Shown: positions 16,321-43,111 of the stretch, piece after piece
How the letters are laid out: every line of letters starts with the position of its first letter
Position numbering within the stretch: position 1 is the first letter of the stretch
Origin: an uncultured Thermoleophilia bacterium
Lineage (GTDB): Bacteria > Actinomycetota > Thermoleophilia > UBA2241
Direction of reading: 5' to 3'
NCBI GenBank assembly: GCA_963709845.1
Contig: CAVPXV010000005.1
Span: 439,032-503,031, forward strand
DNA: 64,000 nucleotides
Program-made: the position numbers and the translations under genes
Notes under the pieces: generated by a model
What the model was told of the DNA's origin: nothing
The model's input: only the letters and a program-made list of their open reading frames with translations
The model's database searches: none

Positions 16321-16330
16321 AGGCCTCACC

Positions 16331-17665: not shown

Positions 17666-17706
17666 GTTCCTGAGCTGCGACGACTGCGGCCGCGCGAGGG
17701 ATCATC

Positions 17707-19808: not shown

Positions 19809-19823
19809 GGAGTCTCTCCTTGG

Positions 19824-20522: not shown

Positions 20523-20549
20523 GTCGAACAGGAGTTCGGCGGTGTCGCG

Positions 20550-21005: not shown

Positions 21006-21006
21006 C

Positions 21007-21303: not shown

Positions 21304-21360
21304 GGCGCATCTCCTCTTGGTAGGTCGAGGGCTGGGCTCAGAAGCGTATCGCAGCGGGCG

Positions 21361-21957: not shown

Positions 21958-22159
21958 GGCGGCCGCGGGCGTGCGTTGCGTGTCAGAGGCGTCATGTGCT
22001 ACCAAGCTTCGCAGCGCGGCGCCGGCTTCCTGCCGCCGGCGCCGGCCTCGCGACCAGGGCGGCCGCAGGTCTCATGCTTTCGCGCCCAAAAGTCGATACA
22101 GGGGACGCAGGGCGGGCTGGTATACTTCGCTGGCAACGCACGTGTATTGGAGGGCGTAC

Positions 22160-22645: not shown

Positions 22646-22655
22646 GAGCCTGCCG

Positions 22656-23234: not shown

Positions 23235-23278
23235 GGGCGGCCGCGGCGTCAGCCGCACCGGCCGCCCGGGGCGGGCAT

Positions 23279-25078: not shown

Positions 25079-25134
25079 TGTACGGCACGGGTTCGCGCAC
25101 GGCGGCCCGCCACCTGCACCGGCGCCCGCTGCGC

Positions 25135-27657
25135 CTAGTCGTTCTCCGCGATCACGTCGCGCACCACCGCGAGCAGGTCCTCGGCCAGGCGCTCCGACTC
25201 GGCGTGGTCCGCGCCCTCGGCGTAGACGTGGAAGACGGGCTCGTCGGCGTCCGGCAGGAGCTGGACCCAGCTGCCGTCGTGCCGCATCCTGATCCCGTCC
25301 AAAAGGCTGATCTCGGCGCCGGCGGCGGCGCGCTGCTGCAGACCCTCCGTCGCCGTGCGCATCACCGTGCCCTTGAGCGACCAGGGGCAGGCCACGGTCT
25401 TGTGTACCAGGGTGCTGGCGGGGATGTCGGCGACCTGCGCGCTGAGGGGCCGCGCCTGCGGCGCCAGCAGCTCCAGCAGCTTGCCCAGGCTCATGACGGC
25501 GTCGAAGGCGGGCAGGAACTGCGGGAAGATGTAGCCGCCGCCGAGCGCCCCGGCGAACACGACGCCGTCCTCGAGTGACGCCTTGGCGAGCTCCGGCAGC
25601 GAGACTTTGGTGCGCACGATCTCGACGCCGAACTCGCCGGCGAGCTGCTCGGCGAGGTGCGTGATGGTGAGCGGCAGCACGATCTTCTCGCCCCTGCCCG
25701 CCTGCTGCGCCACGAGCTTCACGAACAGGAGGAGCGCCTTCTCGAGAGGCACCTCGGCGCCCGAGTCGTCGATGATGTAGATGCGCTCGGCGCCCGGGCC
25801 GATGACCACGCCGAGGTCCGCCTCCATGGTACGCACCAGGCGCTGCACCTCGGCGATGTTGGCGCCGAGCTGCTCCGCGTCGAGGCTCACGTGGCGCTGA
25901 TCGTTGAAGGCGCGCACCGAGAGGACCTCGGCGTCGAGGTCGCCGAGGATGTTGGGCAGCGAGAGCGAAGCGGGTGAGTGCGAGTAGTCGATCACGAGGC
26001 GGTAGGCGCGGCTGCGGATGCGCTCCCCGTCCCACGAGCCTTTGAGGCCGCGCACGTAGGTCTCCATCGCCCTGTCGGGGAACTGGAGCTCGCCGAACTC
26101 GCTGTAGAAGGCGCGGCGGAAGTCCTCGCGCCCGTAGTACTTCTCGATGTCCTTCTGGCGTTTCTCGCTGAGGTTGAGGCCGGGGGGCTCGAACACCTGG
26201 ATCTGGATCATCTCCGGGTCCCAGCTCGAGATGCGCACGTGCATGCCGCCGTCGGCGCTCCCCGTCCTGGCCTCGTACCTGTTGATGGCGCTGCTGGCGA
26301 CGCGCAGATCGCGCACGATGACGCCGGTGGAGTTGAGGCCGCAGATGAGGGCGCGCTTGATGACCCGCGAGGCCGGATGGGCGTCGCGGCTCGTGGTGAC
26401 GCTGGCGCCCTTCTTGAGCGCCGTGCCGTAGGCCATCGCCAGCTTGAGCGCGAGCTCGGCGGTGATGTCGACGTTGATCAGGCCGGTGACGCCGTCCTTG
26501 CCGAAGAGCTGCGCCGTGCCGCGTGACTCCCAGATGATGCTCGAGTTGACCTGCGCGCCGGCCTCGACCGTCTTGAACGGGTAGACCTTGACGTCCGGGG
26601 CGATGTAGGCCTGCTCGCCGATCACGCACTCGTCGCCGATGGCGACGCCCTCGCTGAAGGTGGCGCCGGCCTTGACGTCGCAGTTCTTGCCGACGATGGT
26701 GCCGTACACCTTGGCCGACGAGCCGATGTACGTGTTGGCGCCGATGACGCTGTTGCGCGTCTCGGCGTGCCCTTTGACCACGACGTTGCTGCCCAGGACG
26801 GAGTACCTGCCGATGGACGCCGTGGCGTCGATCTTGGCGTAGTTGCCGATGAACGCCGGACCGCTCATGTTCTCGAGCGAGTCGAGGTTGATGCCGTCGC
26901 CGAGGAAGATGCGGTCGTGAAGCTCGATGCCGGGGATCTCGGCCTCGACCTTGCCGTCGAGGAGGTCGCGGTTGGCGGCGAGGTACTGCGGCAGGCTGCC
27001 GATGTCCTGCCAGTAGCCCTCCGCGACGTAGCCGAAGAGGGGCGCGCCCATCTCGAAGAGCTTCGGAAACAGGTCCTGGCTGAAGTCGTACTGGGTGTCG
27101 GCCGGGATGTGGTCGAAGACCTCGGGCTCGAGCACGTAGATGCCGGTGTTGACCGTGTCGCTGAACACCTGGCCCCAGGTGGGCTTCTCGAGGAAGCGCT
27201 CGATGCGGCCTTCCTCGTCGACGACGACGACGCCGAAGTCGAGGGGGTTCTCGACGCGCTTGAGCGCGATGGTGACCATGGCGCCGCGGCGCTTGTGGAA
27301 GGCGACGATCTCGCTGAGGTCGAAGTCGGTGAGCGCGTCCCCCGAGATGACGATGAAGGTGTCGTCGCGCAGGTGGTCCTCGGCCAGCTTCACGCTCCCG
27401 GCGGTGCCGGCCGGCGCCTGCTCCACGGAGTAGTTCATGCTCACGCCCAGCGACGAGCCGTCGCCGAAGTAGTCGCGGATGACCTTGGGCAGGAACATCA
27501 GCGTGACCACGGTCTCGTCGATGCCGTGCCGCTTGATGAGCTCGACGATGTACTCCATGCAGGGCTTGCCGCAGAGCGTCACCATCGGCTTGGGCTGGTT
27601 GCTGGTGAGCGGGCGCAGCCTGGTGCCCTCGCCGCCTGCCATGACGACCGCACGCAT
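25135..27657 (-). CDS. Sugar-phosphate nucleotidyltransferase (left-handed beta-helix C-terminus) fused to a phosphomannomutase/phosphoglucomutase-like domain
   Basis: ATG after [26 protein letters not shown] nucleotidyltransferase motif with hexapeptide repeats. The C-terminal alpha/beta PGM/PMM-like domain lacks a canonical TASHNP phosphoserine loop ([13 protein letters not shown] instead). Confidence 0.8.
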
Positions 27658-27773
27658 GGGCCTCACCTGTGCTTTCGCTCGAGAGGACTGGACGTCGTGC
27701 GGCAATCGTACCAGAGCGCGGCGAGCGCGGGCCACGTTGCCGCGGGGGGCTCGCCGGAGAGGCGGCGCGGGGC

Positions 27774-28334
27774 TCAGGCGGCAGCGCCGCCCCCTCCCCG
27801 CGCCCGGCGCACGAAGGCGACGGCACGGTGCAGGTACAGAAGACCGCTGGCCACGTAGAGCGTCGCGCCCACGGCGAAGAACGACCAGCCCACGACGCGG
27901 AAGTCGATGATGAACCACTGGATGGCGCAGATCAGGATGAAGTTGCCGGCCTTGCCCCAGCGGCTGATCTGTGGCCCCTGCCGCGTGTAGCGCCGCGTCG
28001 GCGCCACCAGCACCAGGATGACGCCGTCGCGGACCAGGAGCGGAAGCACGGCCCACCAGGGCAGTGTGCCGAAGTACCAGAGCATCGCCACAAGTGTGAA
28101 GAAGAAGAGCCGGTCGACGATGGGGTCCAGCCAGCGCCCGAACTCGCTCTGCAGGTGGTAGCGCCGCGCGATGATCCCATCGGCGACGTCGCTGAGCGCC
28201 GCGAAGAGGACGATCCAGGCCGTCGTCCAGCTGGCGCCGGGCGCGTAGAGGCCGTAGGTCCAGACGACGAAAGGCAGGGCCACGAGGCGCGCGACGGTGA
28301 GGACGTTGGGCACGTGGCGCAGGAGGCGTTCCAT
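27774..28334 (-). CDS. CDP-alcohol phosphatidyltransferase family protein
   Basis: Signature [10 protein letters not shown]...G...DPIVDR with 5-6 TM segments. Confidence 0.8.
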
Positions 28335-28446
28335 TGGCGGGCAGTCTAGCAGGCCGCTGTGGAAGCCGCCGCGCGGCCCCTCACCGGCCCCTCTCCCCCA
28401 CGCCGACGCCTCCGCGTGCCTATGCTAGAATACGGCGCTGTACGGT

Positions 28447-28524
28447 CGGCGTGTGGCGCAGCCTGGTTAGCGCACTAGTCTGGGGGACTAGGGGTCGCCG
28501 GTTCAAATCCGGCCACGCCGACCA
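28447..28524 (+). tRNA. tRNA-Pro (anticodon GGG)
   Basis: Manually folded cloverleaf: 7-bp acceptor CGGCGTG/CACGCCG, D-arm GCGC/GCGC, anticodon stem CTAGT/ACTAG with loop CTGGGGG, T-arm GCCGG-TTCAAAT-CCGGC, encoded CCA. Confidence 0.85.
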
Positions 28525-28932
28525 TCTTCTTTCTCCTGCAAAACCCACACTTTCACGTTACGCTGACCGCAGATTTCTGCCTGCCTAGGTATTCGTAGAG
28601 ACGATCTCTGTCCCGATTTCGGCCGTTTGTCTGGAGTGGCCGCCGACCGTGCGCCGGCGGTCGGCGCGCATCGAGGCCGCGGCACCCCGCACGGCCGAGG
28701 TCGTTGAGATGCGTGTGAGGTCGGCGTGGCCGAGCTGGTCGGCGATCGCCGCAGCCGACGTCGTTGAGTGCCGACGGGGCCAGGAGTGCCGCTGCCGTGA
28801 TGTCGGAGCTGCGGCAGCCCTGCCCCATGCGCAACCTTCTGGAATGTGGGCATTCGGTCATTCGACTCCGGTGAGTACGAGCGGGTGCTCCGCGGCCGCT
28901 GCAGGGAATGATCTCCCTGCTGGACTGCGGCT

Positions 28933-29487
28933 ATGAGGACTCGACGCACAGTGGTCGTGATGACGGTGGCGGTGCTGGCGCTCGCCGGCTTCACCGCGAC
29001 CTACCTGACGAGGTTCACCTTCGGCGACCCGTTCTCGGGAACGTGGACGCTGTCCCCGGACGTCCCCTACGCCGTGGTGATCAAGCTCGCGAGGGGCGGG
29101 TACTGGGTCGCCGTTGCGGACGGACAGACCGACAGTGGTTGGGTCGCCGCCAGGCGCAGCGGATGGGTGTTGACACCCAGAGGTGTGGTCTTGACGACCA
29201 CGCCGGTGTTCCGCTTGTGGAACGGCCATCTGATCGAGACCGACAATGGCCTGAACACGCTCCTCACGAAGATGAGTGGCAGCACTTCGCTACCGCCACG
29301 GCAGTCCCCGGCGGTCTATGGGATCCTCAACGGCATGCGGAAAGAAGTCGGTCACGACCTGGCAGCGCTGCCGGTCGCCGGCATGCAGCGGAAGGCTGAG
29401 CGGCTGGCCGCCATGAGTGCGAGTCCCAGTGTGCGCCGGCACATAGGGCGTTTCGCTACGCCAAACGGCCCGCCGGGGGCAACGTGA
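28933..29487 (+). CDS. Hypothetical secreted/lipoprotein-like protein
   Basis: N-terminal hydrophobic segment VVVMTVAVLALAGF and protein-like composition. Its 3' end runs into the direct repeat at 29442. Confidence 0.4.
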   Translation: MRTRRTVVVMTVAVLALAGFTATYLTRFTFGDPFSGTWTLSPDVPYAVVIKLARGGYWVAVADGQTDSGWVAARRSGWVLTPRGVVLTTTPVFRLWNGHLIETDNGLNTLLTKMSGSTSLPPRQSPAVYGILNGMRKEVGHDLAALPVAGMQRKAERLAAMSASPSVRRHIGRFATPNGPPGAT

Positions 29488-29501
29488 GAGCGGCGGGCCG
29501 C
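29442..29501 (+). repeat. Direct repeat copy A (CATAGGGCGTTTCGCTACGC..GGCCCGCCG-loop-CGGCGGGCC hairpin)
   Basis: Near-identical to 38793..38849, including an identical 9-bp stem and a GGGGCAACG(T)GAGA loop. Confidence 0.6.
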
Positions 29502-30153
29502 AGCGGGTAACAGCGGGGAGTCCCCTCCCTCTCACCGCTATGGCGACGATACAGCACCGGTGACGTGTTGACAGCGATGTCGCCGCTGCGGACAACGCTT
29601 TCGGCGGCCGGCGGTTTGCGCGCTGGATGAGACGCATAGAGAGCCGTCGCACGAGTGTGGAGAAGCAGGGTAGTTCCCCGACGCGGAACGGCCCGTCGCG
29701 CCGGCTAATGGAGGCCAAGCGTGACGGGCCTACGACGCCACTCCTCTCTCCAGACGGTGACGCCGTGCACCATACGTTCCCGCAGCGTGGATGCAGGACA
29801 CGCGAACGGACGTCTCGATGTTGTCCGGTCAGGCTACGTCCGGCCGCGGGTGCGCCGTAGCGCCTGGCAGCCGCCGCGAGGGGTGACGACGAGGCGGACA
29901 CGGTGACAATGCCCCAGGACGCAAAGCGGGCCTGAGGTCGCTCCAGACTCCCAGGCCCGACGCCGTGCCCCCGTAGACTCGGCAATCTCCGATTGTTCCC
30001 CGTTTCGCGGGCGCCAGCCACGCTGCGACCATCGCCGCGCAGGTCTCCTCCTCATGGCGAGGCGCGGCCGGACGGGTCAGGGCCCTTTATTACGTCGCTG
30101 CGCCCACCTAGTATCTGACTGCACCTGCTCAGGCCGGCACGAGGACGGGGGAC

Positions 30154-30441
30154 ATGGCACTGCTCATCATCCAGCACAAGGTGGGGGACTACGCGACGTT
30201 CGTGCAGGTCTTCATGGACGACCAGGAACGCCGCAGAAGGGCGGGCTGCCTGGGCGCGCGGGTCCATCGCCGTGCCGACGACCCTAACGACGTCTGGGTG
30301 GTCCTCGAGTTCGACACGGCCGAGCACGCTCGCGAGCATGCCGAGGGGCTGGAACTGCGCGAGGCCATCAACTGGGCCACGAGCAACGTGTCGATGCCCA
30401 GCTTCGTAGTGCTCGAACAGCAGATGGAGACCGACGCCTAG
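30154..30441 (+). CDS. ABM-domain (antibiotic biosynthesis monooxygenase-like) small protein
   Basis: 95 aa following the ABM pattern (..GCLGARVHRRADDPNDVWVVLEFDTAEHAREH..). Confidence 0.55.
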   Translation: MALLIIQHKVGDYATFVQVFMDDQERRRRAGCLGARVHRRADDPNDVWVVLEFDTAEHAREHAEGLELREAINWATSNVSMPSFVVLEQQMETDA

Positions 30442-30482
30442 CTGGCGCAGACGTTTGACTCGCGTAGGCGGCAGTCACTTTT

Positions 30483-30508
30483 GGCGGCCGAGCCTCCGCT
30501 CGGCGGCC
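30483..30508. terminator. GC-rich hairpin between convergent genes (candidate bidirectional terminator)
   Basis: GGCGGCCGAGC-ctcc-GCTCGGCGGCC stem-loop between the ABM gene (+) and a hypothetical gene (-). Confidence 0.3.
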
Positions 30509-30581
30509 GGTGGAAGACCGCCAGCTCCGACGGTGGCCGCCCGACCCAAGAGGGCGGCGGGCCTCTGCTCGGCGCGAGACT

Positions 30582-30848
30582 CTAGGCGATCCGCACCGCG
30601 CCTTGGGCGCAGAGCTGCCCGCCGATCGCTTCCTCCTCGAGCAGCTGCAGCCGCTCGCGGAGCGCGTTCAGGATGTCGACGCAGAGCGCGAGCTGCTCGC
30701 TCGCTCGACCGATGCCCGCGGCGTTGCCGTCCTTCGCGTCCTGCAGCAGGTCACCCGCCGCCGCCAGCAGGTCGTTGACCGTCGCCGCCACCGTGCCCGG
30801 CACGTCGATCTCGAGGTCAGCGATCCTCTCGTCCAATGCCGTGGTCAT
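30582..30848 (-). CDS. Hypothetical protein (about 88 aa, helical)
   Basis: Start MTTALDERIADLEIDVPG. The upstream part of the ORF-track entry is Arg-rich artefact. Confidence 0.35.
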   Translation of the reverse strand: MTTALDERIADLEIDVPGTVAATVNDLLAAAGDLLQDAKDGNAAGIGRASEQLALCVDILNALRERLQLLEEEAIGGQLCAQGAVRIA

Positions 30849-31188
30849 GCCCGCCCCCCACTCGAATGCTCCGGCGCACCGCCACGTGCGCCGAGGCTCT
30901 GGGCGGCCCGCCGCGCCGTCAAGATGGCGGAGTGCGATGGGCCTGCGCAAACGCTACACCACGCGCAACGGGCGCAGCCCCAACGTAGCCGTCGCCGACA
31001 ACGCCTTTGGCGGCGCGGAGGCGGCGGCGCAGGCGCATCGGCCCTTCCGCCGGCGCTGAAGAGGATTCGCCTGGACTCCGGCCCGTCGGATCCCGTAAAC
31101 GGAGAGCGTCCGCACGGAATCGGATACGTTAGCGGTGCCGACGTCACGCCGTGACGAGGCTCATCACAGGCTCGGGCAGGGGGACACG

Positions 31189-32766
31189 ATGGAGGAGCGC
31201 GTAGCGGGCAAGGGCGATCTGCGGGACGGCCAGATGACGACCGTGCTCGTCGGCGGCAAGAAGGTCCTGCTGGCCAAGGTCGACGGTCGCTTCTACGCGA
31301 CCTCGGCGCGCTGCCCGCACTGGGGCGGGCCGCTGCCCGAGGGTACCCTGAACGGCCCGCGCCTCCTCTGCCCCTGGCACAAGGCCACCTACGACGTGCG
31401 CCGCGGCGACCTCCTGGAGCCGCCGTCCCTCGACGGCATCGCCGCCTTTCGCGTACGCGTCGAGGGCGAAGACGTGTTCGTCGACCGCTCCGAGGAGCCG
31501 CGCCGCGGGCGCACGATGCCCATGTACGCCTGCGACCTCGCGGCCGACGCGCGCGTCGTGGCCGTGATCGGCGGCGGCGGCGGCGCGGCCGCGGCCGTCG
31601 AGGCGCTGCGCCAGGAGTGCTTCATCGGCCGCATCGTGATGATCAGCCCCGAAGAGGAGTGGCCCTACGACCGCCCCAACCTGAGCAAGGACTTCCTCGC
31701 CGGAGAGCTGGACGCGAAGTGGCTGCCGCTGCGCTCGCCGGAGTTCTACGACGAGCACACCATCGAGCATCTCGTGGCGCGCGTGACGGAGCTCGACGTC
31801 GGCACGCGCCGGCTCACGCTCGAGGACGGGAGCACCATGACGCCCGACGCCGTGCTCATCGCCGGCGGTGCGCGGCCTCGCCGCCTGGACGTGCCGGGCG
31901 CGGATCTGGCGGGCGTCTTCACTCTGCGCTCGCAGGCGGACGCCGTGGCCCTCGGCGCCGCCGCCGCCGGCGCCCGGCGCGCCGTCGTCGTCGGCGCTAG
32001 CTTCATCGGCATGGAGGCCGCGGCCAGTCTCGCGCGGCGCGGCCTCGAGGTGATCGTGACCGGTCCCGAGTCGACGCCGTTCGAGCGCATCCTCGGCGAG
32101 GACGTCGGCCGCGTCGTGCAGGCGTGCCACGCCGAGCACGGCGTGCGTTTCGCGCTCGGGCGCGGCGTCGCACGCTTCGTGGGGGAGGGCACAGTCCGCG
32201 CCGTCGAGCTCGACGACGGGACGGCGCTCGACGCCGACCTCGTCGTGGTCGGCGTCGGCGTGCGCCCGGCGACCGAGTTCGTGCGCGGCGTCGAGCTCGA
32301 CGCCGACGGCGGTCTGCCCGTGGACGAGCGCCTGCGCGTCGCGCCGGGCGTGTGGGCGGCCGGTGACGTAGCCCGCTACCGCGAGCCCCACACCGGCCGC
32401 GACGTGCGCATCGAGCACTGGCGCCTCGCCGAGCAGCACGGCCGCGCCGCCGCCGCCGACATCGCCGGCAGGGGCGGGCCGTTCGCCGGCGTCCCCTTCT
32501 TCTGGACGCAGCACTTCGACCTCGAGCTCGGCTACGCCGGCGTCGGCCAGGGCTGGTCGGAGGTCATCCTCACCGGCGAGCCTGAGCAGCGCGACTTCAC
32601 CGCGTTCTACGCCGACGGTGACCGGCTCGTGGCCGCCTGCGGCACCCAGCGCGCCGAGATCGGCGCCTTCGTCGAGCTCATGCGCGAGGGTCGCCTGCCC
32701 GGACCGGGCGACATGCGCGGGCGCCGGCGGGCCGGCCTCGCGGAGCTTCTCGCGCGCCGCGCCTGA
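31189..32766 (+). CDS. Rieske [2Fe-2S] domain fused to an FAD-dependent pyridine nucleotide-disulfide oxidoreductase (AIF/ferredoxin-reductase-like)
   Basis: Rieske CPHWGGPL...CPWHKATYD, then FAD/NAD Rossmann motifs VIGGGGGAAAAVEAL and VVVGASFIGMEAA. ATG after GGGGGA. Confidence 0.85.
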   Translation: MEERVAGKGDLRDGQMTTVLVGGKKVLLAKVDGRFYATSARCPHWGGPLPEGTLNGPRLLCPWHKATYDVRRGDLLEPPSLDGIAAFRVRVEGEDVFVDRSEEPRRGRTMPMYACDLAADARVVAVIGGGGGAAAAVEALRQECFIGRIVMISPEEEWPYDRPNLSKDFLAGELDAKWLPLRSPEFYDEHTIEHLVARVTELDVGTRRLTLEDGSTMTPDAVLIAGGARPRRLDVPGADLAGVFTLRSQADAVALGAAAAGARRAVVVGASFIGMEAAASLARRGLEVIVTGPESTPFERILGEDVGRVVQACHAEHGVRFALGRGVARFVGEGTVRAVELDDGTALDADLVVVGVGVRPATEFVRGVELDADGGLPVDERLRVAPGVWAAGDVARYREPHTGRDVRIEHWRLAEQHGRAAAADIAGRGGPFAGVPFFWTQHFDLELGYAGVGQGWSEVILTGEPEQRDFTAFYADGDRLVAACGTQRAEIGAFVELMREGRLPGPGDMRGRRRAGLAELLARRA

Positions 32767-32961
32767 GCCTCAGACCAGCGCGCGGCCGCCTCAGGCACGG
32801 CCGCCCTGGATCGACGTCTGCCCGGGCGGCGCGCCGGCGTCCCCCCGGCGCGGCCACACAACGCGCCCGCGTTACTCACCCTCGTGCGCGGGGCAAGTGA
32901 AACCTGCGAGACGGCCTGCGAGGCCCTACGGACACGTCGGCGACACAGGAAATGAGCGATC

Positions 32962-33786
32962 ATGGCACGCCCACTCTGGAAGGGAAGCATCAGTTTCGGA
33001 CTCGTCTCCATCCCCGTCCACGTGTACTCGGCGACCCGCGCGCGAGCGCTGCGCTTTCGTCAGCTCGATCGTCGCGACAAGTCCCCGATCCGCGAACAGC
33101 GGATCAACGAGACGACCGGCCGCGAGGTGCTCTGGGAGGACATCGTCAAGGGCTACGAGTACGAGAAGGACTCCTTCGTGATCGTCGAGCCCGAGGATTT
33201 CGAACGCGCCAACGTCAAGGCGACCGAGACCATCGAGATCATGCAGGCCGTGCCGCGCGACGCGCTGGCGCCTGAGTACCTCGAGACTCCGCTGTTCGTG
33301 GTGCCGACCAAGGCCGGCATCAAGGCCTACCACCTGCTGCGCGAGACCCTGCGCCACAGCGACCGGCTGGCGATCGCGACGATCGTCATGCGCGGGCATC
33401 AGCACCTGGCCGCGCTGATCCCCCACGAGGACGTCATGATGCTGGAGCTCCTGCGCTTCGCTCACGAGCTCAAGGCGCTCTCCGATCTCGACCTCGACTA
33501 CGACATCTCGGCGCCGGAGACGAGGCCCGCCGAGATCGAGATGGCGGAACAGCTGGTCGCGGCGCTCGACGCACCGTGGCAGCCCAAGCAGTACCGCGAC
33601 GAGTACCGCGACGACCTGCTGGCGTTCATCGAGCGCAAGGCGAAGAGCGGCGAGAAGCCGGTGCGCAGCGCCGGCCGCGCCGACCGCGGCGAGCCCGCCG
33701 AAGTGGTGGACATCATGGAGCTGCTCAAGCAGAGCGTCGGCGAGGCGCGCGGCCGCGGCCGCTCGCGCCAGCGCAAGGCGAGCTGA
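32962..33786 (+). CDS. ku: Non-homologous end joining protein Ku
   Basis: MARPLWKGSISFGLVSIPVHVYSAT N-terminus and full Ku core. Confidence 0.9.
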   Translation: MARPLWKGSISFGLVSIPVHVYSATRARALRFRQLDRRDKSPIREQRINETTGREVLWEDIVKGYEYEKDSFVIVEPEDFERANVKATETIEIMQAVPRDALAPEYLETPLFVVPTKAGIKAYHLLRETLRHSDRLAIATIVMRGHQHLAALIPHEDVMMLELLRFAHELKALSDLDLDYDISAPETRPAEIEMAEQLVAALDAPWQPKQYRDEYRDDLLAFIERKAKSGEKPVRSAGRADRGEPAEVVDIMELLKQSVGEARGRGRSRQRKAS

Positions 33787-33801
33787 CGAGCAGGCTCAGG
33801 G

Positions 33802-36372
33802 ATGAGCCCGCTCGAGACATACCGCGACAAGCGCGACTTCGAGAAGACGGCGGAACCCGAGGGCCGTGCGTCGCGGCGGCGCTCGCGCGCCGCCGAAGCG
33901 GGCGGCGCCTTCGTCATCCACAAGCACGCGGCGCGCCGGTTGCACTACGACCTGCGCCTGCAGATGGACGGCGTGCTGCGCAGCTGGGCGGTGCCCAAAG
34001 GGCCCAGCCTGGACCCCGCGGTGAAGCGCCTCGCCGTCCACGTCGAGGACCATCCCCTGGAGTACGGCGCGTTCGAGGGGGTGATCCCCAAGGGCGAATA
34101 CGGCGGAGGGACGGTCATGATCTGGGACGCCGGCCTCTGGGAGGCGATCGGCGACGCGCCGGCCGGCTACCTCCGCGGCGAGCTCAAGTTCCGTCTCGAC
34201 GGTCAGCGCCTGCACGGCGCCTGGGTGCTCGTGCGCCTCAAGGGCCGCTCGGAGTCGGGAGAGGGCGCCGGAGACGGCCGCGACTGGCTGCTGATCAAGG
34301 AACGCGACGCCGAGGCGCAGCCGGGCGGCGCCGACCCGTGGGGCGACGAGGACCGCAGCGTGACGAGCCGGCGCACGATGAGCGAGATCGCGGCGGCCAG
34401 TCCACCGCCGGCGGCGCGCGGGCAGGCGTCGCGCACCGCCTCGCGCCGGCCGCGCACCGGTGGGCGGTCCTCCCCACCGCCCGCCGCGGCGAGCGTCACG
34501 CTGGCCACGCTCGTCGACGGTCCGCCCGACGGTGACGACTGGCTGCACGAGATCAAGTTCGACGGCTACCGCATCCTGGCGCGCCTGGACCACGGCCACG
34601 TGACGCTGCTTTCGCGCAACGGCCTCGACTGGACGCACCGCTTTCCGACGCTGGCCAAGGAGGTGGCGGAGCTGGAGACGGACGGCGCCCTGCTCGACGG
34701 CGAAGTCGTCGCCTACCGGGCGGACGGCGTCAGCGATTTCGGCGCCCTGCAGCGCGCCTTGAGCGAGGCCGACGACCGCAGCCTGACCTACATGGCGTTC
34801 GACCTCCTGCACGCCGACGGCGCCGACCTGCGGCGGCTGCCGCTGGCGAGGCGCAAGGCGCGCCTCGCCGAGTTGCTGCGAGCGGGAGAGGCCGGCGGCT
34901 CGGGCATCATCCGCGTCAGCGACCACGTCGCCGGCCACGGGGCGGCCTTCTACGCGGAGGCCTGCCGCCTCGGGCTCGAGGGCGTCGTCTCCAAGCGCGC
35001 CGACAGCGCCTACGCCGGCCGGCGCTCGCGCTCCTGGCTCAAGAGCAAGTGCGGCAAGCGTCAGGAGTTCGTCGTCGGCGGCTTCACGGACCCTGCCGGC
35101 AGCAGGACCGGGTTCGGCGCCCTCCTCGTCGGCGCCCGCGAGGCCGACGGCAGCCTGCGCTTCGCCGGCAAGGTCGGCTCCGGCTTCAGCGACGCCGACC
35201 TTCGGCGCCTGGCGCCGCGCCTGAAGGCCGCGGCGCGCCGGTCCTCGCCGTTCGCCGCGGCCGCCACGGTGCGCGGCGCGCACTGGGTCACGCCGAGACT
35301 GGTGGTCGAGGTCGCGTTCGCGGGCTGGACGAACGAGGGACGCCTGCGCCAGCCCGTGTTCAAGGGCGTGCGCGAGGACAAGCCGGCCGCGGCCGTGCGC
35401 CGCGAAGGCGCGGCCGCCAAGGCGTCCGCGCCCGCGAAGCCGCCGGCGGACCCGGACGCGGGTGCCGGCAAGCGCCCGAAGGCCGGCGCCCCTGTCTCCG
35501 TGGCCGGCGTGAGGATCTCGCACCCCGAGCGCCTCGTGTATCCCGACGTCGGGATGACCAAGCTCGAGGTCGTCAGCTACTACGAGGCGGTCGCGGAGCG
35601 CATGGTCCCGCAGCTCGACGGCCGGCCGCTCACCGTCGTGCGCTGCCCCGAGGGCGCCGCCGAGGAGTGCTTCTTCCAGAAGCGCGCGGCCGCGTCGATC
35701 CCCGACCGGGTCGAGAGGGTGACCGTCGCGCCGGGGCGCGGCAACCGCGGCACCATGGTCTACCCCGCCGTCACGAGCACGGCGGCGCTGATCACGATGG
35801 TGCAGATGGGCGCCCTCGAGTTCCACATCTGGGGATCGCGCGAGGCCACGCTCGAGGCTCCGGACAGGGTGGTGTTCGACCTCGACCCCGCCCCGGAGGT
35901 GAGGTGGGCCGAGGTGCGCACGGCGGCCCTGCGCCTGCGCGACGATCTGCGCGAGCGGGGGCTCGAGAGCCTGGTGATGACGTCCGGCGGCAAGGGGCTG
36001 CACGTCGTCGTCCCGCTGCGGCCGCAGGCCGGCTGGGATGCCGTCGCCGGCTTCGCCCGCGAGGTCGCCGAGGGTCTCGTGGCGCAGTATCCGCAGCAGT
36101 ACGTCGCCACCATGTCGAAGGCAAAGCGCGCCGGCAAGGTGTTCATCGACCACTTCCGCAACGGTCGCGGCGCGACGGCGATAGCGCCGTACTCACTGCG
36201 CGCCCGCGACGGCGCGGCGGTGGCCACGCCTCTGGCGTGGGACGAGCTCGCGAGGACCGCGGGAGGGGCCGTCTGGACGGCGCCGCGGGTGCTCCGCCGG
36301 CTGCGCTCCCGCGAGGATCCGTGGGCTGAGGCGGGCTCGCTCGGCCGGCAGACCTGGAGGCAGCGGCGATGA
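33802..36372 (+). CDS. ligD: Multidomain ATP-dependent DNA ligase LigD (phosphoesterase-ligase-polymerase order)
   Basis: N-terminal PE domain (FVIHKHAARRLHYDLRL), ligase motif I EIKFDGYR, C-terminal primase-polymerase domain (SHPERLVYPDVGMTKLEVVSYYEAVAERM). Confidence 0.9.
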   Translation: MSPLETYRDKRDFEKTAEPEGRASRRRSRAAEAGGAFVIHKHAARRLHYDLRLQMDGVLRSWAVPKGPSLDPAVKRLAVHVEDHPLEYGAFEGVIPKGEYGGGTVMIWDAGLWEAIGDAPAGYLRGELKFRLDGQRLHGAWVLVRLKGRSESGEGAGDGRDWLLIKERDAEAQPGGADPWGDEDRSVTSRRTMSEIAAASPPPAARGQASRTASRRPRTGGRSSPPPAAASVTLATLVDGPPDGDDWLHEIKFDGYRILARLDHGHVTLLSRNGLDWTHRFPTLAKEVAELETDGALLDGEVVAYRADGVSDFGALQRALSEADDRSLTYMAFDLLHADGADLRRLPLARRKARLAELLRAGEAGGSGIIRVSDHVAGHGAAFYAEACRLGLEGVVSKRADSAYAGRRSRSWLKSKCGKRQEFVVGGFTDPAGSRTGFGALLVGAREADGSLRFAGKVGSGFSDADLRRLAPRLKAAARRSSPFAAAATVRGAHWVTPRLVVEVAFAGWTNEGRLRQPVFKGVREDKPAAAVRREGAAAKASAPAKPPADPDAGAGKRPKAGAPVSVAGVRISHPERLVYPDVGMTKLEVVSYYEAVAERMVPQLDGRPLTVVRCPEGAAEECFFQKRAAASIPDRVERVTVAPGRGNRGTMVYPAVTSTAALITMVQMGALEFHIWGSREATLEAPDRVVFDLDPAPEVRWAEVRTAALRLRDDLRERGLESLVMTSGGKGLHVVVPLRPQAGWDAVAGFAREVAEGLVAQYPQQYVATMSKAKRAGKVFIDHFRNGRGATAIAPYSLRARDGAAVATPLAWDELARTAGGAVWTAPRVLRRLRSREDPWAEAGSLGRQTWRQRR

Positions 36373-37482: not shown

Positions 37483-38595
37483 CTAGCGCTCCGCTCCGGC
37501 GGCGGCCTGCATCGCTCGCCTGAGGTTCCTCAGCGACTCGTGGAAGAGCGTGAGGACCTGCCGCCAGGCAAGGTCCCAGCTGTCTGGCGGGTAGCGGAGG
37601 CCGAGGTCGGCGAAGACCCGCGTCTCGTCCGCTTGGCCGTGCAGCGGGTGCAGGTTCCGGAGCTTCTGGATGCTGCGCAGTCGCTCCGCGTCGTCGACCA
37701 CGCTGCCGTACTTCTCCGTCACCAGTGCGACCAGGCGAGGCACCGCGCCGTCGCCCGCGTTCCCGTTGGTCGCCGGCACCACGAGCTTGTCCAGCAGGTC
37801 CGCGACCGCCGCCGCGCGCAGACTGAAGTCCTTGTAGTCGACGCAGGGCCCGAAGAGCGCCGCAGCGCTGCGTGCCCGCGGGATCGGCCACGGCCTGCGC
37901 TTGCCCGTGGCCAAGCGAAAGGCGACCGTGAAGAAGTCGATCTCGTCGACCACGCGATCGCCGATGTCCGCCGAGGGTTCGGCCGGGACCCTCTCGACCT
38001 GGACCCTGCGCTTCCAGCAAGAGCGCAGCTTCAAGTCGGGGTTGCAGTCCGGGCCAGGGTGGCGTTCGCCGGAATCGCAGAGCACGCCGGCCAGATTCCG
38101 GCCGAAGGCGCCGCCCTTCACCGCCTGCGTGACGGGATGCACGAAATCCGCGCAACGCAGGCGGTCGTCGGCGACCGCGCAGGTGCGGCAGGCGAAGGCC
38201 GTGGTCATCGCCGGTCCCTCGTCGCCGCAGGCCCGGCACTCCGGCCCGGATCGGCCCGCCTCCACCCAGCGGCAGCGCTTGTGGTCTCCGGCCGTCGCGC
38301 GGAGCTCGTCCACGTTCTCGGCCGAGATGAACAGGTGGATGGGGTCCGAGCCCTCGCACGACAATGCGCCGTCGCGGAACGCCGATTCGATCCCGGGAAG
38401 CGCGTAGCGCAGCATGGTCGGTGTCGCCAGACTCACGCCGCCAGGCGCAAAGCAGCTGTACACCTCGTAGGGAAGGTGTATCTGCACGGCGCGACGGCCA
38501 CCGCCATCACGAGCCACCAGCTGAAGGATCCAGTCGCCGTGAGAGTAGTCGTCGCGAATGAGCCCGGCGCATTGGATCTCGACATCGGCCCGCAT
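37483..38595 (-). CDS. Hypothetical Cys-rich protein (370 aa)
   Basis: Protein-like composition with clustered Cys (CRWVEAGRSGPECRACGDEG, CRTC...C). I recognise no family. The ORF-track extension above 38595 is an artefact. Confidence 0.55.
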   Translation of the reverse strand: MRADVEIQCAGLIRDDYSHGDWILQLVARDGGGRRAVQIHLPYEVYSCFAPGGVSLATPTMLRYALPGIESAFRDGALSCEGSDPIHLFISAENVDELRATAGDHKRCRWVEAGRSGPECRACGDEGPAMTTAFACRTCAVADDRLRCADFVHPVTQAVKGGAFGRNLAGVLCDSGERHPGPDCNPDLKLRSCWKRRVQVERVPAEPSADIGDRVVDEIDFFTVAFRLATGKRRPWPIPRARSAAALFGPCVDYKDFSLRAAAVADLLDKLVVPATNGNAGDGAVPRLVALVTEKYGSVVDDAERLRSIQKLRNLHPLHGQADETRVFADLGLRYPPDSWDLAWRQVLTLFHESLRNLRRAMQAAAGAER

Positions 38596-38792
38596 AGTCC
38601 CCCCGTTCGACCTCGCAAGCCTATCCCGACCATGAGGCACCAACAATGGGAGGAAGACGTAACCTCGGCTGCCCGGACGCGGCGCGGCCAGTCGCCGGCA
38701 CCTGGCAGAGGACGTTCCGCCATGCAAAAAGCGACCCGCCGTTGCCCTGCGGGTCGCTTCGATACATCCTTCGGCCGGAGCGGTGCCCGCTC

Positions 38793-38849
38793 CATAGAAC
38801 GTTCCGCTACGCGGGGCGGCCCGCCGGGGGCAACGAGACGGCGGGCCGC
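38793..38849 (+). repeat. Direct repeat copy B (matches 29442..29501)
   Basis: CATAGAACGTTCCGCTACGC..GGCCCGCCGGGGGCAACGAGACGGCGGGCCGC, lying 9351 bp downstream of copy A in the same orientation. Confidence 0.6.
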
Positions 38850-39011
38850 GGGTGCAGCCGGGACTACCCCAGCCGCGCCTTAGCGGCAAGGATACGACAG
38901 CGACGACCGCTTCAAGGCTTTGTAGCCGCCGCCGACAACGCTTCCTCGAAGCGAGCAGGTGACGGCAAGATCCCCCTGCTTGCCATCACCGCCTCCCGGC
39001 GCGGGTCCTGC

Positions 39012-39200
39012 TCAGCGCTCGCGCGCCTTCCGCTTCACCTGCCTGCGGTCCAGGTAGAAGCGACCGCCGATCGTCTTCCCCCACAAGTCCCCGGCCACGA
39101 CCATGCGCCGGATCTCGAAGACGTCGATGCAGAGCAACTCGGCGGCCTCTCTCGTGGTCATCACCGGACATTCGGCTTGCGATCGCTGCTCCAGGGCCAT
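39012..39200 (-). CDS. xis: Excisionase/Xis-like HTH DNA-binding protein
   Basis: 62 aa with TTREAAELLCIDVFEIRRMVVAGDLWGKTIGGRFYLDRRQV (excisionase-family HTH pattern). Strong RBS GAGGAGGGA. Confidence 0.55.
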   Translation of the reverse strand: MALEQRSQAECPVMTTREAAELLCIDVFEIRRMVVAGDLWGKTIGGRFYLDRRQVKRKARER

Positions 39201-39844
39201 GTCCGTCCCTCCTCGCGGTCAAGCGCCGGCCACGACCATGCATTCAACCCGATCCGGGATTCACCTCTAGCGAGACGCCCCTTGCGCCGGAACGTGGAGG
39301 GTCAGCGGCTTGACGAGAAAGGCGACGGCCACGCGGTGGCGGCCATGCCGGCCCCGAGCAGGGGCCTGCGCGTGCCGCCGGTCGGGATCGTCCCACGGAA
39401 GAGGCCCGGCGCGCCGGTAAGGCTTCGCGGCTTCGCAACGGGCCTGTACGGACCCTATACCACGCGATCCCGAATGCAGCCACATCGTCGTCGTTGCCGA
39501 CAACGCTTTGGGTCGTCGGTGAGACGCGGGGGTGACGAAACGCAGAGGCGACCCGTCTGCCCCGGGACGGGTCGCCTCGATAGATACATCGACCCTGGCG
39601 CCAGGCTGCTGCATAGGACGTTTGGCCATGCCGAGCGGCTCGGGGGCGCGGGGCGGGCACGCGCGACCCGCCCCGCGATGGGGGTGTACGTCGGGGGGCG
39701 CGGGGGCGGGCAGGTCCTTGGCCCCCCGACGCAAGCGCTGCTTCGCCGCTGCCGGCCTCCCTCCTGCACAGCGAAGTAGTATGCAGCGTGAGGGCGCCGC
39801 CCGAGCGCCAGACTGTCCCCGGTCGTTCCCGAAGGAGGCGAGCG

Positions 39845-40143
39845 ATGATGACTACCGACCCCGCAGCTGCGGATCTGGTGGGTCTGCAGTTCTCCGTCTA
39901 CCCCCTACGCCAGGCGCACGTGCGCCCGGCCATCCAGGCCGCCGTCGGCGCCGCGGCAGCGGCCGGCGTGAACGTCAACGTGGGCCGCCTCAGCACCTTC
40001 GGCCCGGGCGACGAGGACTCCGTCTTCGCCGCGGTGCGGGCGGCGTTCGACGCGGCCCGTTCGTTCGGACCCGCGGTGATGGTGGTGACCCTGTCCAGCG
40101 GCCTCCCGAGCGAGCGAGACCGTCGGGGAGATCGAGCGAGCCG
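39845..40143 (+). CDS. MTH1187/YkoF-family small ligand-binding protein; 3' end uncertain (possible frameshift)
   Basis: MMTTDPAAADLVGLQFSVYPL...GRLSTFGPGDEDSVFAAVRAAFDAA...AVMVVTLSSG fits the family. The annotated ORF continues as Arg/Ala-rich junk to 40426. Confidence 0.45.
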
Positions 40144-40781
40144 CGCACGACTGAGCCGGCGGGACCGACCTCATCGTGCAGGCCGCGCGTCTCACCCCGT
40201 CAGCTTGGCCTTGAAGGCCGCGAGCTCCACGTCGGTCATGGCGACGGCGGCGGCGGGGGCGACGAGAAGCTCGCCCTGCTCCGCCGGGGCCATCGCGGCG
40301 CCTCAAGCAGGCCCCGCCGGCAGCCCTGCCAGTCTTGCGGCCACGCGCGTGAGCAGGGCCAGCCCGGCTGCCCGCCGGGCGCCGCTGTCGTTTGGCCCGG
40401 CCGCGAACGGGTCGCTGTGCCAGTAGCGCTCGGCGCGGCCCTGCGCCCAGCCCACGCCGATGAACTCGAGGCGCAGCGTGGAGCGCGGCTCGAGGGGGCG
40501 CTCCCGGGCTGCGCTCGAGGCGTCGCGCTCGGCTGGGTCGTCAGCGTGAACGGCTGTGCGCCGAACGCCAGCCAGCGCTCGCCGGACGCGGCGAAACAGC
40601 GCGCGTGGCCGGCGTCGCGCCTCTCCTCGGGATCGTTCAGCCAGCGCCACTCCATCGCGACACCCCGCATCTCGGGCTTGTGGCCAGCGTGCCGTCTGGG
40701 GAAGCCGCGTCGGTCTGACCCTGTAGAGTCTACCCGTCCTCGCGTGGCGCCGCCGGGCCGGGCGTTGCGGAGCCGCACGCT

Positions 40782-41066
40782 TCACTCCGGCAGCGGCTCC
40801 GCATCGTCCTCGGAGGTCTCGGCGTGGCGCAGGGCCTCGATCTCGCGGAGCCGGTCCTCGAGGCCCTCCAGCAGCGCGATCGCGACCGTGACCTGCTCCG
40901 CGGCGCGGTCCTCGCGCCCTTCCTGCAGGCGCGCGTAGGCCGCGTCGAGCGTCGCGTCCAGCGCCACGCGCACGTGCCCGACCGCCCCGCCGCCGGGGAC
41001 GAGAGCGGGGCGCAGATCCCCCATGCGATCGGCCAGGAGAGCCTTGATCCTCTCGACGTCGTCCAT
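40782..41066 (-). CDS. Hypothetical small acidic protein
   Basis: 94 aa, helical and acidic (MDDVERIKALLADRMGDL...), with non-artefactual composition. Confidence 0.35.
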   Translation of the reverse strand: MDDVERIKALLADRMGDLRPALVPGGGAVGHVRVALDATLDAAYARLQEGREDRAAEQVTVAIALLEGLEDRLREIEALRHAETSEDDAEPLPE

Positions 41067-43014: not shown

Positions 43015-43111
43015 AGTGAGGCGACGCCAAGCGTTCGATTGACACTCTGACAGCCTGACGACGACGACGAGGCCGGGGCCCGGGTACTGGGGCCCCGGCC
43101 TCGTCACGTGA

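What the first reader, a model, noticed from the sequence alone, without database searches (positions are those of the whole stretch)
38646..39780. Hairpin-dense repeat patch: many degenerate copies of a short motif each followed by a GC stem-loop
Within 1.1 kb I count motif copies near 38706, 38793, 39147 (weak), 39400 (weak) and 39612. The consensus is about AGRACGTTYCGCYAYGC, each followed 5-25 nt later by a different GC-rich hairpin (for example GCGACCCGC-cgttgccct-GCGGGTCGC, or CGCGGGGCGGG-cacgcgcgac-CCGCCCCGCG). There are two copies of a second hairpin repeat GCCGACAACGCTTT at 38931 and 39497, also at 29591 and 31011. A GGGTCGCYTCGATA-ACATC segment is duplicated at 38745 and 39571. The periodic motif makes the + strand ORF read RTFRHA / RTFRYA / RTFGHA. 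Conserved head plus variable hairpin resembles REP/BIME or MITE families. Next to an Xis-like gene it could also be an oriT or att regulatory region.
Basis: seen in the sequence. Interest (0 to 1): 0.55.

Follow-up and report, generated by a model that had tools for sequence, protein, structure and literature searches.

The report
Local hairpin-rich non-coding repeat family
The patch is real: it consists of decaying, same-direction copies of one modular non-coding unit with perfect GC hairpins, found only in a strain-variable island next to a tRNA-Pro gene, and it belongs to no known repeat or RNA family, so it is a modest lineage-specific curiosity.

Summary
A 20-nt head (CAKAGRRCGTTYSGCYAYGC) occurs exactly four times in 64 kb, at 29442, 38706, 38793 and 39612, always on the + strand. 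Each copy has a short variable hairpin before it and a perfect GC hairpin 3-15 nt after it. A 22-nt tail (GTNGYCGYNGCSGACAACGCYT) also occurs four times.

Heads, hairpins and tails are parts of one unit of about 160-250 nt. It is present as six copies or fragments at two loci 9 kb apart. The DNA is non-coding by GC3, and the 377-aa + strand ORF has no homologue among 1.84 billion proteins. The copies lie in a strain-variable island that starts at the 3' end of tRNA-Pro, beside a decayed integrase.

Rfam, plasmid, phage, viral, genome and metagenome scans found no relatives. The features that define REP/BIME, MITE, attC, att and oriT elements were tested and not met.

Head, hairpin and tail are far better conserved than the rest (83% against 41% identity). 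This points to constraint or gene conversion. Function is unresolved. My best guess is structured single-strand boundary elements that work like a REPIN.

The parts
38687..38706 (+). Short variable hairpin (GCCAG..CTGGC) immediately 5' of head B0
   Evidence: Read from the sequence. A different short hairpin sits at the same place before every head.
38706..38725 (+). Head copy B0: CAGAGGACGTTCCGCCATGC
38729..38759 (.). Perfect 11-bp hairpin with a 9-nt loop. Read on the minus strand the loop is AGGGCAACG and the stem is followed by TTTTTG, so it looks like a terminator downstream of the xis-like ORF. It is an inverted relative of hairpin 38816-38849.
   Evidence: (I20, I21).
38750..38776 (+). 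CGGGTCGCTTCGATACATCC segment, duplicated at 39568-39594
   Evidence: D2, 81%; 38750-38823 matches 39568-39642, E 4e-6.
38777..38793 (+). Short hairpin GGAGCGG-tgc-CCGCTCC 5' of head B. One substitution in strain L001 breaks a pair.
38793..38812 (+). Head copy B: CATAGAACGTTCCGCTACGC
38816..38849 (.). Perfect 11-bp hairpin, loop GGGGCAACGAGA. The 10-bp stem it shares with the hairpin at 29466-29500, and the first nine loop bases (GGGGCAACG), are identical in the two.
   Evidence: (I18).
38922..38943 (+). Tail copy B: GTAGCCGCCGCCGACAACGCTT
   Evidence: (D3).
39012..39200 (-). 62-aa ORF with a weak excisionase-family helix-turn-helix (HTH) match, enclosed by the repeat units. No homologue was found other than itself.
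   Evidence: (HTH_17, E 0.0012, below the cut-off).
39403..39512 (+). Unit C', homologous to 30905-31010, ending in the tail GTCGTCGTTGCCGACAACGCTT (39487-39508)
   Evidence: (71%, E 6e-9).
39545..39578 (.). Perfect 13-bp hairpin with an 8-nt loop. It shares GCGACCCG(Y)C in inverted orientation with 39647-39677.
   Evidence: (I9, I13).
39594..39605 (+). Short palindrome CCTGGCGCCAGG 5' of head D
39612..39631 (+). Head copy D: CATAGGACGTTTGGCCATGC
39647..39677 (.). Perfect 11-bp hairpin CGCGGGGCGGG-cacgcgcga-CCCGCCCCGCG
   Evidence: (I22).
39689..39731 (.). 11-bp stem CGTCGGGGGGC..GCCCCCCGACG with a 21-nt loop
   Evidence: (self-inverted hit 39689-39731).
39741..39762 (+). Degenerate tail of unit D, at the spacing from its head that units A and B predict
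   Evidence: alignment. Weak; not detected by nhmmer.
29442..29600 (+). Unit A, outside the finding: head 29442-29461, hairpin 29466-29500, tail 29579-29600. It overlaps the stop codon of the 184-aa ORF.
   Evidence: (70% over 159 nt to unit B, E 1e-13).
30905..31010 (+). Unit C, outside the finding: degenerate head and hairpin, tail 30985-31006. It lies between the divergent 88-aa gene and the Rieske/FAD reductase gene.
28447..28524 (+). tRNA-Pro(GGG). Synteny with an 81%-identical relative ends exactly at its 3' end, which marks the left edge of the island that holds all the units.
28560..28800 (-). Frameshifted remnant that reads like the C-terminus of a tyrosine integrase (..LRHH.. / ..IADQLGHADLTRISTTSAV..)
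   Evidence: six-frame translation read by eye. Not confirmed by a profile search.

Best explanation
What it is. The patch is non-coding DNA built from decaying copies of one modular unit of about 160-250 nt, all pointing the same way. The modules run in this order: a short variable hairpin, the 20-nt head, a perfect GC hairpin, a spacer of about 70 nt, and the 22-nt tail. In two places the unit is preceded by an inverted relative of the GC hairpin plus a TCGATACATC segment, which gives a REPIN-like doublet. Six copies or fragments exist: A, C, B0, B, C' and D. All lie inside a strain-variable island that starts at the 3' end of tRNA-Pro. This part is shown.

Origin (inferred). The copies arose by local duplication or recombination of island backbone DNA, not by genome-wide spread.

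How it works (inferred, weakly supported). The head, GC hairpin and tail are kept by sequence-level constraint. They act as single-stranded (RNA, possibly ssDNA) stem-loop modules that mark and insulate the boundaries between accessory gene modules. At least one of them, 38729-38759 on the minus strand, acts as an intrinsic terminator. In operation this resembles REPIN/BIME or BOX-type mosaic repeats, but the patch is not a member of those families.
For: Non-coding status. There is no GC3 periodicity across 38600-39800 apart from the small xis-like ORF. The + ORF has no Pfam match and no homologue among 1.84 billion representative proteins. tblastn finds no paralogue fragments of island proteins in these stretches.

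A real repeat family. Self-BLAST gives E values from 1e-13 to 4e-6. nhmmer profiles find exactly 4 heads and 4 tails, all on the + strand, and the next-best hits have E > 0.3.

Hairpin excess. The patch has 4 perfect stems of at least 11 bp, against 0.006 in shuffles. The two doublets fold with z scores of -2.7 to -3.6.

Constraint. In the A/B alignment, the head, hairpin and tail blocks are identical at 64 of 77 positions and the rest at 34 of 82 (Fisher p = 5e-8, blocks chosen after the fact). The shared hairpin stem and the first nine loop bases (GGGGCAACG) are identical.

Restricted to the island. There are no copies in the remaining roughly 45 kb of the window, in the unique part of L001, in the 8.3 kb of alternative island DNA in L189, or in about 100 kb from relatives.

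Island context. Similarity to the 81%-identical relative L177 stops at the tRNA-Pro 3' end. An integrase-like remnant lies beside it. GC3 is lower between 28.5 and 44 kb.

Terminator-like feature. Hairpin 38729-38759 followed by TTTTTG lies on the minus strand downstream of the xis-like ORF.
Against: No single role fits every position. Unit A lies between two + genes and B0/B between two - genes. C and C'/D lie between divergent genes, where no terminator is needed, yet all units face the same way.

Only one hairpin has a clear U-tract, and the consensus scan found no terminators or promoters.

Whole-unit folding is only modestly better than shuffles, with z from +1.0 to -2.4.

The hairpin formed by the head itself pairs in 87.5% of cells, against 25-47% when the partner strand is slid. 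With four sequences, however, the shuffle control is not significant, and the minimum-free-energy folds use different pairing registers.

Strains 1.5-1.8% diverged show no clear lack of substitutions in the units, and one change breaks a short hairpin.

Gene conversion could explain the conserved blocks without any function.

The rest of the genome could not be read, so 'local only' rests on about 64 kb plus relatives.
Confidence: 0.4

Rival explanations
1. Promoter-plus-leader or small-RNA modules read on the minus strand. The tail would be an upstream protein-binding site, followed 32-41 nt later by a TANNNT -10 box. The hairpins and the head would be transcribed. Unit B would give an RNA of about 165 nt ending at the terminator 38729-38759.
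For: On the minus strand a TANNNT box (TATCGT, TATCCT, TAGCGT, TAGGGT) sits in the same aligned column in all four tail-bearing copies. Its T, A and T are invariant and the middle three bases vary (alignment, read by eye). Three of the four copies point towards minus-strand genes: the 88-aa gene, the xis-like ORF and the 370-aa gene. U-rich tracts follow hairpins only on the minus strand.
Against: Unit A would fire antisense into the 184-aa gene. Unit D lacks the box. The spacing from tail to box varies. The consensus promoter scan found nothing. The head hairpin uses G-U pairs that exist only on the + strand. The 370-aa gene has its own promoter-like TTGTTG-N17-TAGGCT closer to its start (read by eye).
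Confidence: 0.2
2. A non-autonomous mobile element, of the REPIN, MITE or IS200/IS605-derived palindrome type, moved in trans by a transposase encoded elsewhere in the genome and inserting beside existing hairpins.
For: The units follow the head-plus-hairpin design. There are two inverted hairpin doublets of 121 and 133 nt. Every copy has the same orientation, as expected for single-strand transposition. Head and tail share an imperfect inverted match around CGTT/AACG. A different short hairpin abuts every head. The units are confined to this lineage, as REP families usually are (PMC2817692).
Against: There are only 4-6 copies, all within 10 kb, and none in the surrounding core DNA or the alternative island DNA. 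No target-site duplication or clear terminal repeats were seen. Three strains show no presence/absence difference. No transposase is among the called genes within 10 kb. Copies are 70% identical, so any movement is old.
Confidence: 0.15
3. Double-stranded DNA binding sites, operator or arm-type, for an island-encoded protein such as the 62-aa excisionase-family helix-turn-helix (HTH) protein that the units enclose.
For: The head and tail are short blocks of 20-22 nt conserved in sequence within diverged DNA. Three heads and two tails flank the xis-like ORF. The tail contains an imperfect dyad, CGYYG-N4-CAACG, which is perfect in unit C'.
Against: The HTH match is below the family cut-offs and the ORF has no homologues. 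Spacings of 87 and 819 nt and 9 kb do not resemble an att arm or an operator array. There is no intact integrase. This idea does not explain the perfect hairpins or their conserved loop.
Confidence: 0.12
4. Functionless relics of segmental duplication in a decaying island. The conserved blocks would be kept alike by gene conversion and the palindromes made by template switching.
For: The island is decaying: it has an integrase-like remnant and a frameshifted YkoF-like gene. Copies range from well preserved to barely recognisable. The identical run in units A and B is contiguous, 19 nt followed by about 12 nt, as in a conversion tract. Close strains show no deficit of substitutions.
Against: There are five perfect stems of 10-13 bp without a single mismatch, while the flanking DNA is about 41% identical between copies. 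Three separate blocks are conserved rather than one tract.
Confidence: 0.13

Closest known systems
REP / BIME / REPIN elements (repetitive extragenic palindromes moved by RAYT transposases; PMC2817692, PMC3733652, PMC3337134)
   Same: Intergenic and GC-rich. Stem-loops sit next to a short conserved unpaired motif. Related hairpins occur in inverted pairs with a spacer of about 60-70 nt. The modules are arranged as a mosaic. The family is specific to one lineage. Some copies lie downstream of genes.
   Different: REPs are 20-40 bp with a conserved palindrome sequence, occur at more than 100 copies per genome, carry a GTAG or CGTC tag, and alternate in orientation within BIMEs. Here the unit is 160-250 nt, there are 4-6 copies within 10 kb, all heads and tails face the same way, the short hairpin beside the head differs in every copy, there is no consistent tag, and no RAYT gene is in reach.
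Modular mosaic repeats such as pneumococcal BOX (boxA-boxB-boxC) and Neisseria Correia elements (from my own knowledge, not checked here)
   Same: Units of about 100-200 nt are built from separable modules that occur in full and truncated combinations. They form stable stem-loops in transcripts and can carry promoter- or terminator-like signals.
   Different: Those families have tens to hundreds of dispersed copies, and Correia elements have defined terminal inverted repeats with a TA target duplication. Neither feature is seen here.
Intrinsic terminators of high-GC Actinobacteria, including hairpins without a U-tail ('I-shaped'; terminology as used in PMC3013805)
   Same: Perfect GC stems of 10-13 bp lie in intergenic DNA. 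One (38729-38759, minus strand) has a canonical U-tract. One (29466-29500) spans a stop codon.
   Different: Three strong hairpins lie between divergent genes. The loop sequence is conserved between copies, which a generic terminator does not need. The hairpins come embedded in a longer conserved unit.
Integron attC sites in cassette arrays (from my own knowledge)
   Same: Structured repeats of the same orientation separate unrelated accessory genes next to a tyrosine-recombinase-like remnant. One repeat overlaps the 3' end of an ORF.
   Different: There are no complementary RYYYAAC / GTTRRRY boxes; head and tail share only 4 complementary bases, in the wrong polarity. There is no IntI gene. 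One 'cassette' would be 7.6 kb. Strain breakpoints do not fall at the units.

Membership tests
REP / BIME | Small (20-40 bp) palindromic unit at high copy number, more than 100 per genome (PMC2817692, PMC3733652) | tested here: not met
   There are 4 heads and 4 tails in 64 kb, all between 29.4 and 39.8 kb. None are in the remaining core DNA, the L001-specific DNA, L189 or about 100 kb from relatives. The full genome could not be read.
REP / BIME | Conserved unpaired GTAG or CGTC tag at one end of the palindrome (PMC3733652) | tested here: not met
   GTAG is present, on the minus strand, in units A and B only, and on the 3' side of the GC hairpin. CGTC is present on the minus strand in B0 and D, and in A of strain L175, but 3-9 nt from a hairpin whose sequence is not conserved.
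REP / BIME | Regularly spaced REPs in alternating orientation (PMC2817692) | tested here: inconclusive
   All heads and tails are on the + strand. However, the GC hairpins form two inverted pairs, 38729-38759 with 38816-38849 and 39545-39578 with 39647-39677.
REP / BIME | A cognate RAYT (Y1 transposase) gene flanked by REPs | not testable with these tools
   None is among the called genes within 10 kb of the patch or among my window ORFs (not all scanned against Pfam).
MITE | Terminal inverted repeats and a target-site duplication | tested here: not met
   Head and tail share only an imperfect inverted match of about 12 nt centred on CGTT/AACG. No duplicated flanking bases lie at the A/B homology boundaries.
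MITE | Dispersed copies with presence/absence differences between strains | tested here: not met
   The units are present and collinear in the window, in L001 (98.5% identical) and in L175/L189 (unit A).
Any Rfam RNA family | Covariance-model match | tested here: not met
   Only the tRNA reaches the gathering threshold. In E-value mode nothing scores below E = 2.8 in 38550-39900 or 29350-31250.
Integron attC | Complementary R'' (RYYYAAC) and R' (GTTRRRY) boxes closing one long imperfect hairpin, with an IntI gene nearby | tested here: not met
   By inspection, the boxes are absent and only 4 bases are complementary. The only recombinase trace is an integrase-like remnant abutting the tRNA.
att site or arm-type sites of an integrative element | A direct repeat of the tRNA 3' end bounding the element, and an adjacent intact integrase | tested here: not met
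   No second copy of the tRNA-Pro 3' end exists in the window. The integrase-like sequence is only a frameshifted remnant 10 kb away.
oriT | A nearby relaxase or mobilisation gene, with a nick site beside inverted repeats | tested here: not met
   The precomputed Pfam hits of called genes within 10 kb include no relaxase, coupling-protein or replication-protein domain.
Intrinsic terminator (hairpin plus U-tract) | A GC stem followed by a run of U on the transcribed strand, downstream of a gene | tested here: inconclusive
   Met by eye for 38729-38759 on the minus strand (TTTTTG), downstream of the xis-like ORF. Weak for 39545-39578 and 29466-29500. Absent for the others.
Repeat protein encoded by the + strand ORF | Coding signal and homologues | tested here: not met
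   There is no GC3 periodicity, no Pfam match and no hit among 1.84 billion representative proteins.

The most novel reading that the evidence does not exclude
The units are strand-specific recombination or boundary sites of a previously undescribed cassette-type array in an uncultured high-GC, probably actinobacterial, lineage. Structured repeats of one orientation would separate unrelated accessory gene modules downstream of a now-decayed tyrosine recombinase at tRNA-Pro, and would be recognised as folded single strands. This would be functionally analogous to integron attC sites but unrelated to them in sequence.
Probability: 0.05. Interest if true: 0.8.

Novelty: new variant of a known kind. 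Interest (0 to 1): 0.3.

Why it matters
If the conserved head, hairpin loop (GGGGCAACG) and tail are true recognition elements, this would be a compact new example of modular structured repeats organising an accessory-gene island, in a poorly sampled high-GC lineage where no such families are described. As things stand, it mainly shows three things. The long + strand ORF is an artefact. The region is a decaying tRNA-linked island. The repeat is local and lineage-specific rather than a genome-wide REP or MITE family. That is useful for annotation but not surprising to a specialist.

Tried and rejected
1. Known RNA families. Rfam at the gathering threshold and in E-value mode found nothing.

2. 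A wide family. The head pattern in genome contigs gave 42 single hits in unrelated taxa with no flank similarity. Head plus gap plus GACAACGC in metagenomes gave 0 hits. Eight viral hits look like chance. Plasmid and phage blastn found no match.

3. Orthologous loci. The 370-aa neighbour has only 3 distant homologues, at 54-58% identity. The upstream DNA I read for two of them lacks the motifs: L002 by scan, L003 by eye only. The xis-like protein has no homologue.

4. A pseudogene origin. tblastn of island proteins finds no fragments in the non-coding stretches.

5. A remnant of the tRNA att site. No repeat of the tRNA 3' end was found. The resemblance between the tail and the tRNA end (CGCCGAC.A) is too short to count.

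6. ECF-sigma, sigma-28 (WhiG), RecA-NDp, DosR, GlnR, dif, single-strand-origin CS-6 (TAGCGT) and DGR TR/VR readings. I considered each by eye from memory and dropped each because spacing or conservation failed in at least two copies.

7. A third 'cassette' (unit D - YkoF - 94-aa gene - a putative degenerate unit near 41.2 kb). The 88-aa and 94-aa proteins are weak paralogues, but the DNA similarity is not significant.

8. A type I toxin or small ORF in the units. No conserved start codon, frame or hydrophobic peptide was seen.

9. A consensus structure for the minus-strand transcript model. The alignment was uninformative because the hairpins are not alignable.
Full report
OBSERVATION. The window is 70.6% G+C. 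In 38646-39780 the 20-nt head CAKAGRRCGTTYSGCYAYGC occurs at 38706, 38793 and 39612. A fourth copy lies at 29442, and all four are on the + strand. The pattern was derived from these same copies, so its chance expectation of 0.01 is circular. Independent support comes from a self-BLAST of the region. It gives 38793-38943 matching 29442-29600 (70% over 159 nt, E 1e-13), 39403-39512 matching 30905-31010 (71%, E 6e-9), 39568-39642 matching 38750-38823 (E 4e-6), and 39487-39547 matching 29579-29639. nhmmer profiles built from the copies recover exactly four heads and four tails. The next-best hits have E > 0.3.

Each head is followed 3-15 nt later by a perfect GC stem, at 38729-38759, 38816-38849, 39647-39677 and 29466-29500. 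A 13-bp stem lies at 39545-39578. Four perfect stems of at least 11 bp in 1135 nt compare with 0.006 in 500 dinucleotide shuffles. No other stretch of that length in the 64 kb holds four. The TCGATACATC duplication is also real.

ANATOMY. Heads, hairpins and tails are not independent. In units A (29442-29600) and B (38793-38943) the order is head, GC hairpin, a spacer of about 70 nt, then tail. Unit D (39612-39762) has the same order with a degenerate tail. Units C (30905-31010) and C' (39403-39512) keep the tail and about 80 nt upstream of it, with only traces of the hairpin and head (plus inspection). B0 (38706-38792) is a truncated unit directly in front of B.

A short hairpin of different sequence abuts every head on its 5' side. 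Hairpin 38729-38759, read on the minus strand, has the loop AGGGCAACG. It is an inverted relative of 38816-38849, whose loop on the + strand is GGGGCAACGAGA. Hairpins 39545-39578 and 39647-39677 share GCGACCCG(Y)C in inverted orientation. So there are two doublets, of 121 and 133 nt, each enclosing the TCGATACATC segment, a short hairpin and a head. Both doublets fold well, with z scores of -2.7 to -3.6.

The head can pair with the 8 nt after its YAY triplet. This holds in 28 of 32 cells, against 25-47% when the partner strand is slid, and it uses G-U pairs that exist only on the + strand. With four sequences the shuffle control is not significant, and the minimum-free-energy folds use other pairing registers.

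CODING STATUS AND NEIGHBOURS. GC3 periodicity is absent across 38600-39800, except for a weak signal over the 62-aa minus-strand ORF at 39012-39200. That ORF has a sub-threshold excisionase-family helix-turn-helix (HTH) match and no homologue other than itself. The 377-aa + ORF has no Pfam match and no hit among 1.84 billion representative proteins.

The flanking genes are a 370-aa orphan on the minus strand (three distant homologues only) and a YkoF-family gene on the + strand. Unit A overlaps the stop codon of a 184-aa ORF. Unit C lies between an 88-aa gene and a Rieske/FAD reductase that is followed by Ku and LigD.

The units therefore occupy one interval between two + genes, one between two - genes and two between divergent genes, always in the + orientation. 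No single promoter or terminator role fits all of them.

GENOMIC CONTEXT. A relative 81% identical in DNA (L177) is collinear with the window from 9131 to 28527. It then diverges completely, exactly at the 3' end of tRNA-Pro. Next to the tRNA, the minus strand carries a frameshifted remnant that reads like the C-terminus of a tyrosine integrase (read by eye). The tRNA 3' end is not repeated anywhere in the window.

Close strains differ at 30276-30279, where L189 continues with 8.3 kb of other genes, and beyond about 42.2 kb in L001. All units therefore lie in an old, decaying, strain-variable island. Neighbouring genes carry RsiG, Rv1828_C and conservon-type domains, which suggests an actinobacterial lineage. 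That is an inference.

No units occur in the alternative island DNA, in the L001-specific DNA or in about 100 kb from relatives. The strain breakpoints do not coincide with units.

CONSTRAINT. In the A/B alignment, the head, hairpin and tail blocks are identical at 64 of 77 positions and the rest at 34 of 82 (Fisher p = 5e-8, blocks chosen after the fact). The shared hairpin stem and the first nine loop bases (GGGGCAACG) are identical, although the surrounding DNA is near saturation. Either sequence-level selection or gene conversion is acting.

Close strains add little. L001 has 19 changes between 38550 and 39900, none in a head or in a stem of at least 11 bp, one in a tail and one that breaks a short hairpin. 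Unit A has one change in about 185 nt, against 12 in the next 243 nt. That is not significant given 1.8% overall divergence.

COMPARISON WITH KNOWN SYSTEMS. Rfam finds nothing. The features that define REP/BIME are small size, more than 100 copies, a GTAG or CGTC tag, alternating orientation and a RAYT gene (PMC2817692, PMC3733652). They are not met, apart from the inverted hairpin doublets. MITE features (terminal inverted repeats, target duplication, insertion polymorphism) are not met. The attC boxes, att repeats and oriT-associated genes are all absent.

INTERPRETATION. It is shown that this is a local, lineage-restricted family of decaying, same-orientation copies of one modular, hairpin-rich, non-coding unit inside a tRNA-Pro island. 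It is inferred that the copies arose by local duplication of island backbone DNA.

The mechanism is my best guess, with confidence of about 0.4 for the whole statement. The conserved modules would act as folded single-strand elements that bound or insulate accessory gene modules, and hairpin 38729-38759 would be a minus-strand terminator. This resembles how a REPIN or BIME works, but the patch is not a member of those families.

The rivals are these. First, minus-strand promoter and leader or small-RNA modules, supported by a TANNNT box in the same aligned column in four copies. Second, a trans-mobilised REPIN- or MITE-like element. Third, DNA binding sites for the enclosed HTH protein. Fourth, neutral relics homogenised by gene conversion.

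Transcript mapping and a whole-genome scan would decide between these. The finding is real but of modest interest.

Noticed in passing
window 28447-28527, compared with L177 1264-1340: Collinearity with an 81%-identical relative ends exactly at the 3' end of tRNA-Pro(GGG). Beyond it the relative carries an unrelated 863-aa gene. The window DNA to the right of the tRNA, to at least about 42 kb, is therefore a variable island.
   Followed up: partly
window 28560-28800, minus strand: A frameshifted remnant that resembles the C-terminus of a tyrosine integrase (LRHH.., IADQLGHADLTRISTTSAV) abuts the tRNA. I read it by eye from a six-frame translation and did not confirm it with a profile search.
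   Followed up: partly
window 30276-30279 (inside the ABM-domain gene 30154-30441); L189 11349; start of L001: In sample ERZ25039488, contig_31907 follows the window up to 30279 and then continues with 8.3 kb of different genes (acetyltransferase, peptidase M1 and others). Contig_93812 starts at 30276 with window-like sequence. This marks a strain-level breakpoint or insertion inside a gene, with a 4-nt overlap (CGAC).
   Followed up: partly
window 39846-40151: The YkoF-family gene has a frameshift near 40116 relative to strain L001, where it encodes 101 aa. Rfam detects no TPP riboswitch upstream, although ykoF genes in other bacteria often have one (from my own knowledge).
   Followed up: partly
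window 30582-30848 (-) and 40782-41066 (-): Two small helical proteins, of 88 and 94 aa, are weak paralogues (30% identity over 54 aa, pairwise E 6e-4). Neither matches any Pfam or NCBIfam family.
   Followed up: partly
window 37483-38595 (-): A 370-aa cysteine-rich orphan protein has only three distant homologues among 5.8 billion clustered proteins and matches no Pfam, NCBIfam or PHROG family. A promoter-like TTGTTG-N17-TAGGCT lies about 25-57 nt upstream of its start.
   Followed up: partly
window 31189-36372: A Rieske/FAD-reductase gene followed by Ku and a full-length LigD sits inside the variable island, between repeat units C and B0. In L001 the LigD is called as three genes, probably because of assembly frameshifts.
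   Followed up: no
window 43066-43105: This is the longest perfect hairpin in the window, with a 16-bp stem and an 8-nt loop (GACGAGGCCGGGGCCC..GGGCCCCGGCCTCGTC). It is unrelated in sequence to the repeat units.
   Followed up: no
window 29626-29868: The non-coding stretch just after unit A is unusually variable between strains: 12 changes in 243 nt, against 1 in the 185 nt of unit A and about 1.8% overall.
   Followed up: no
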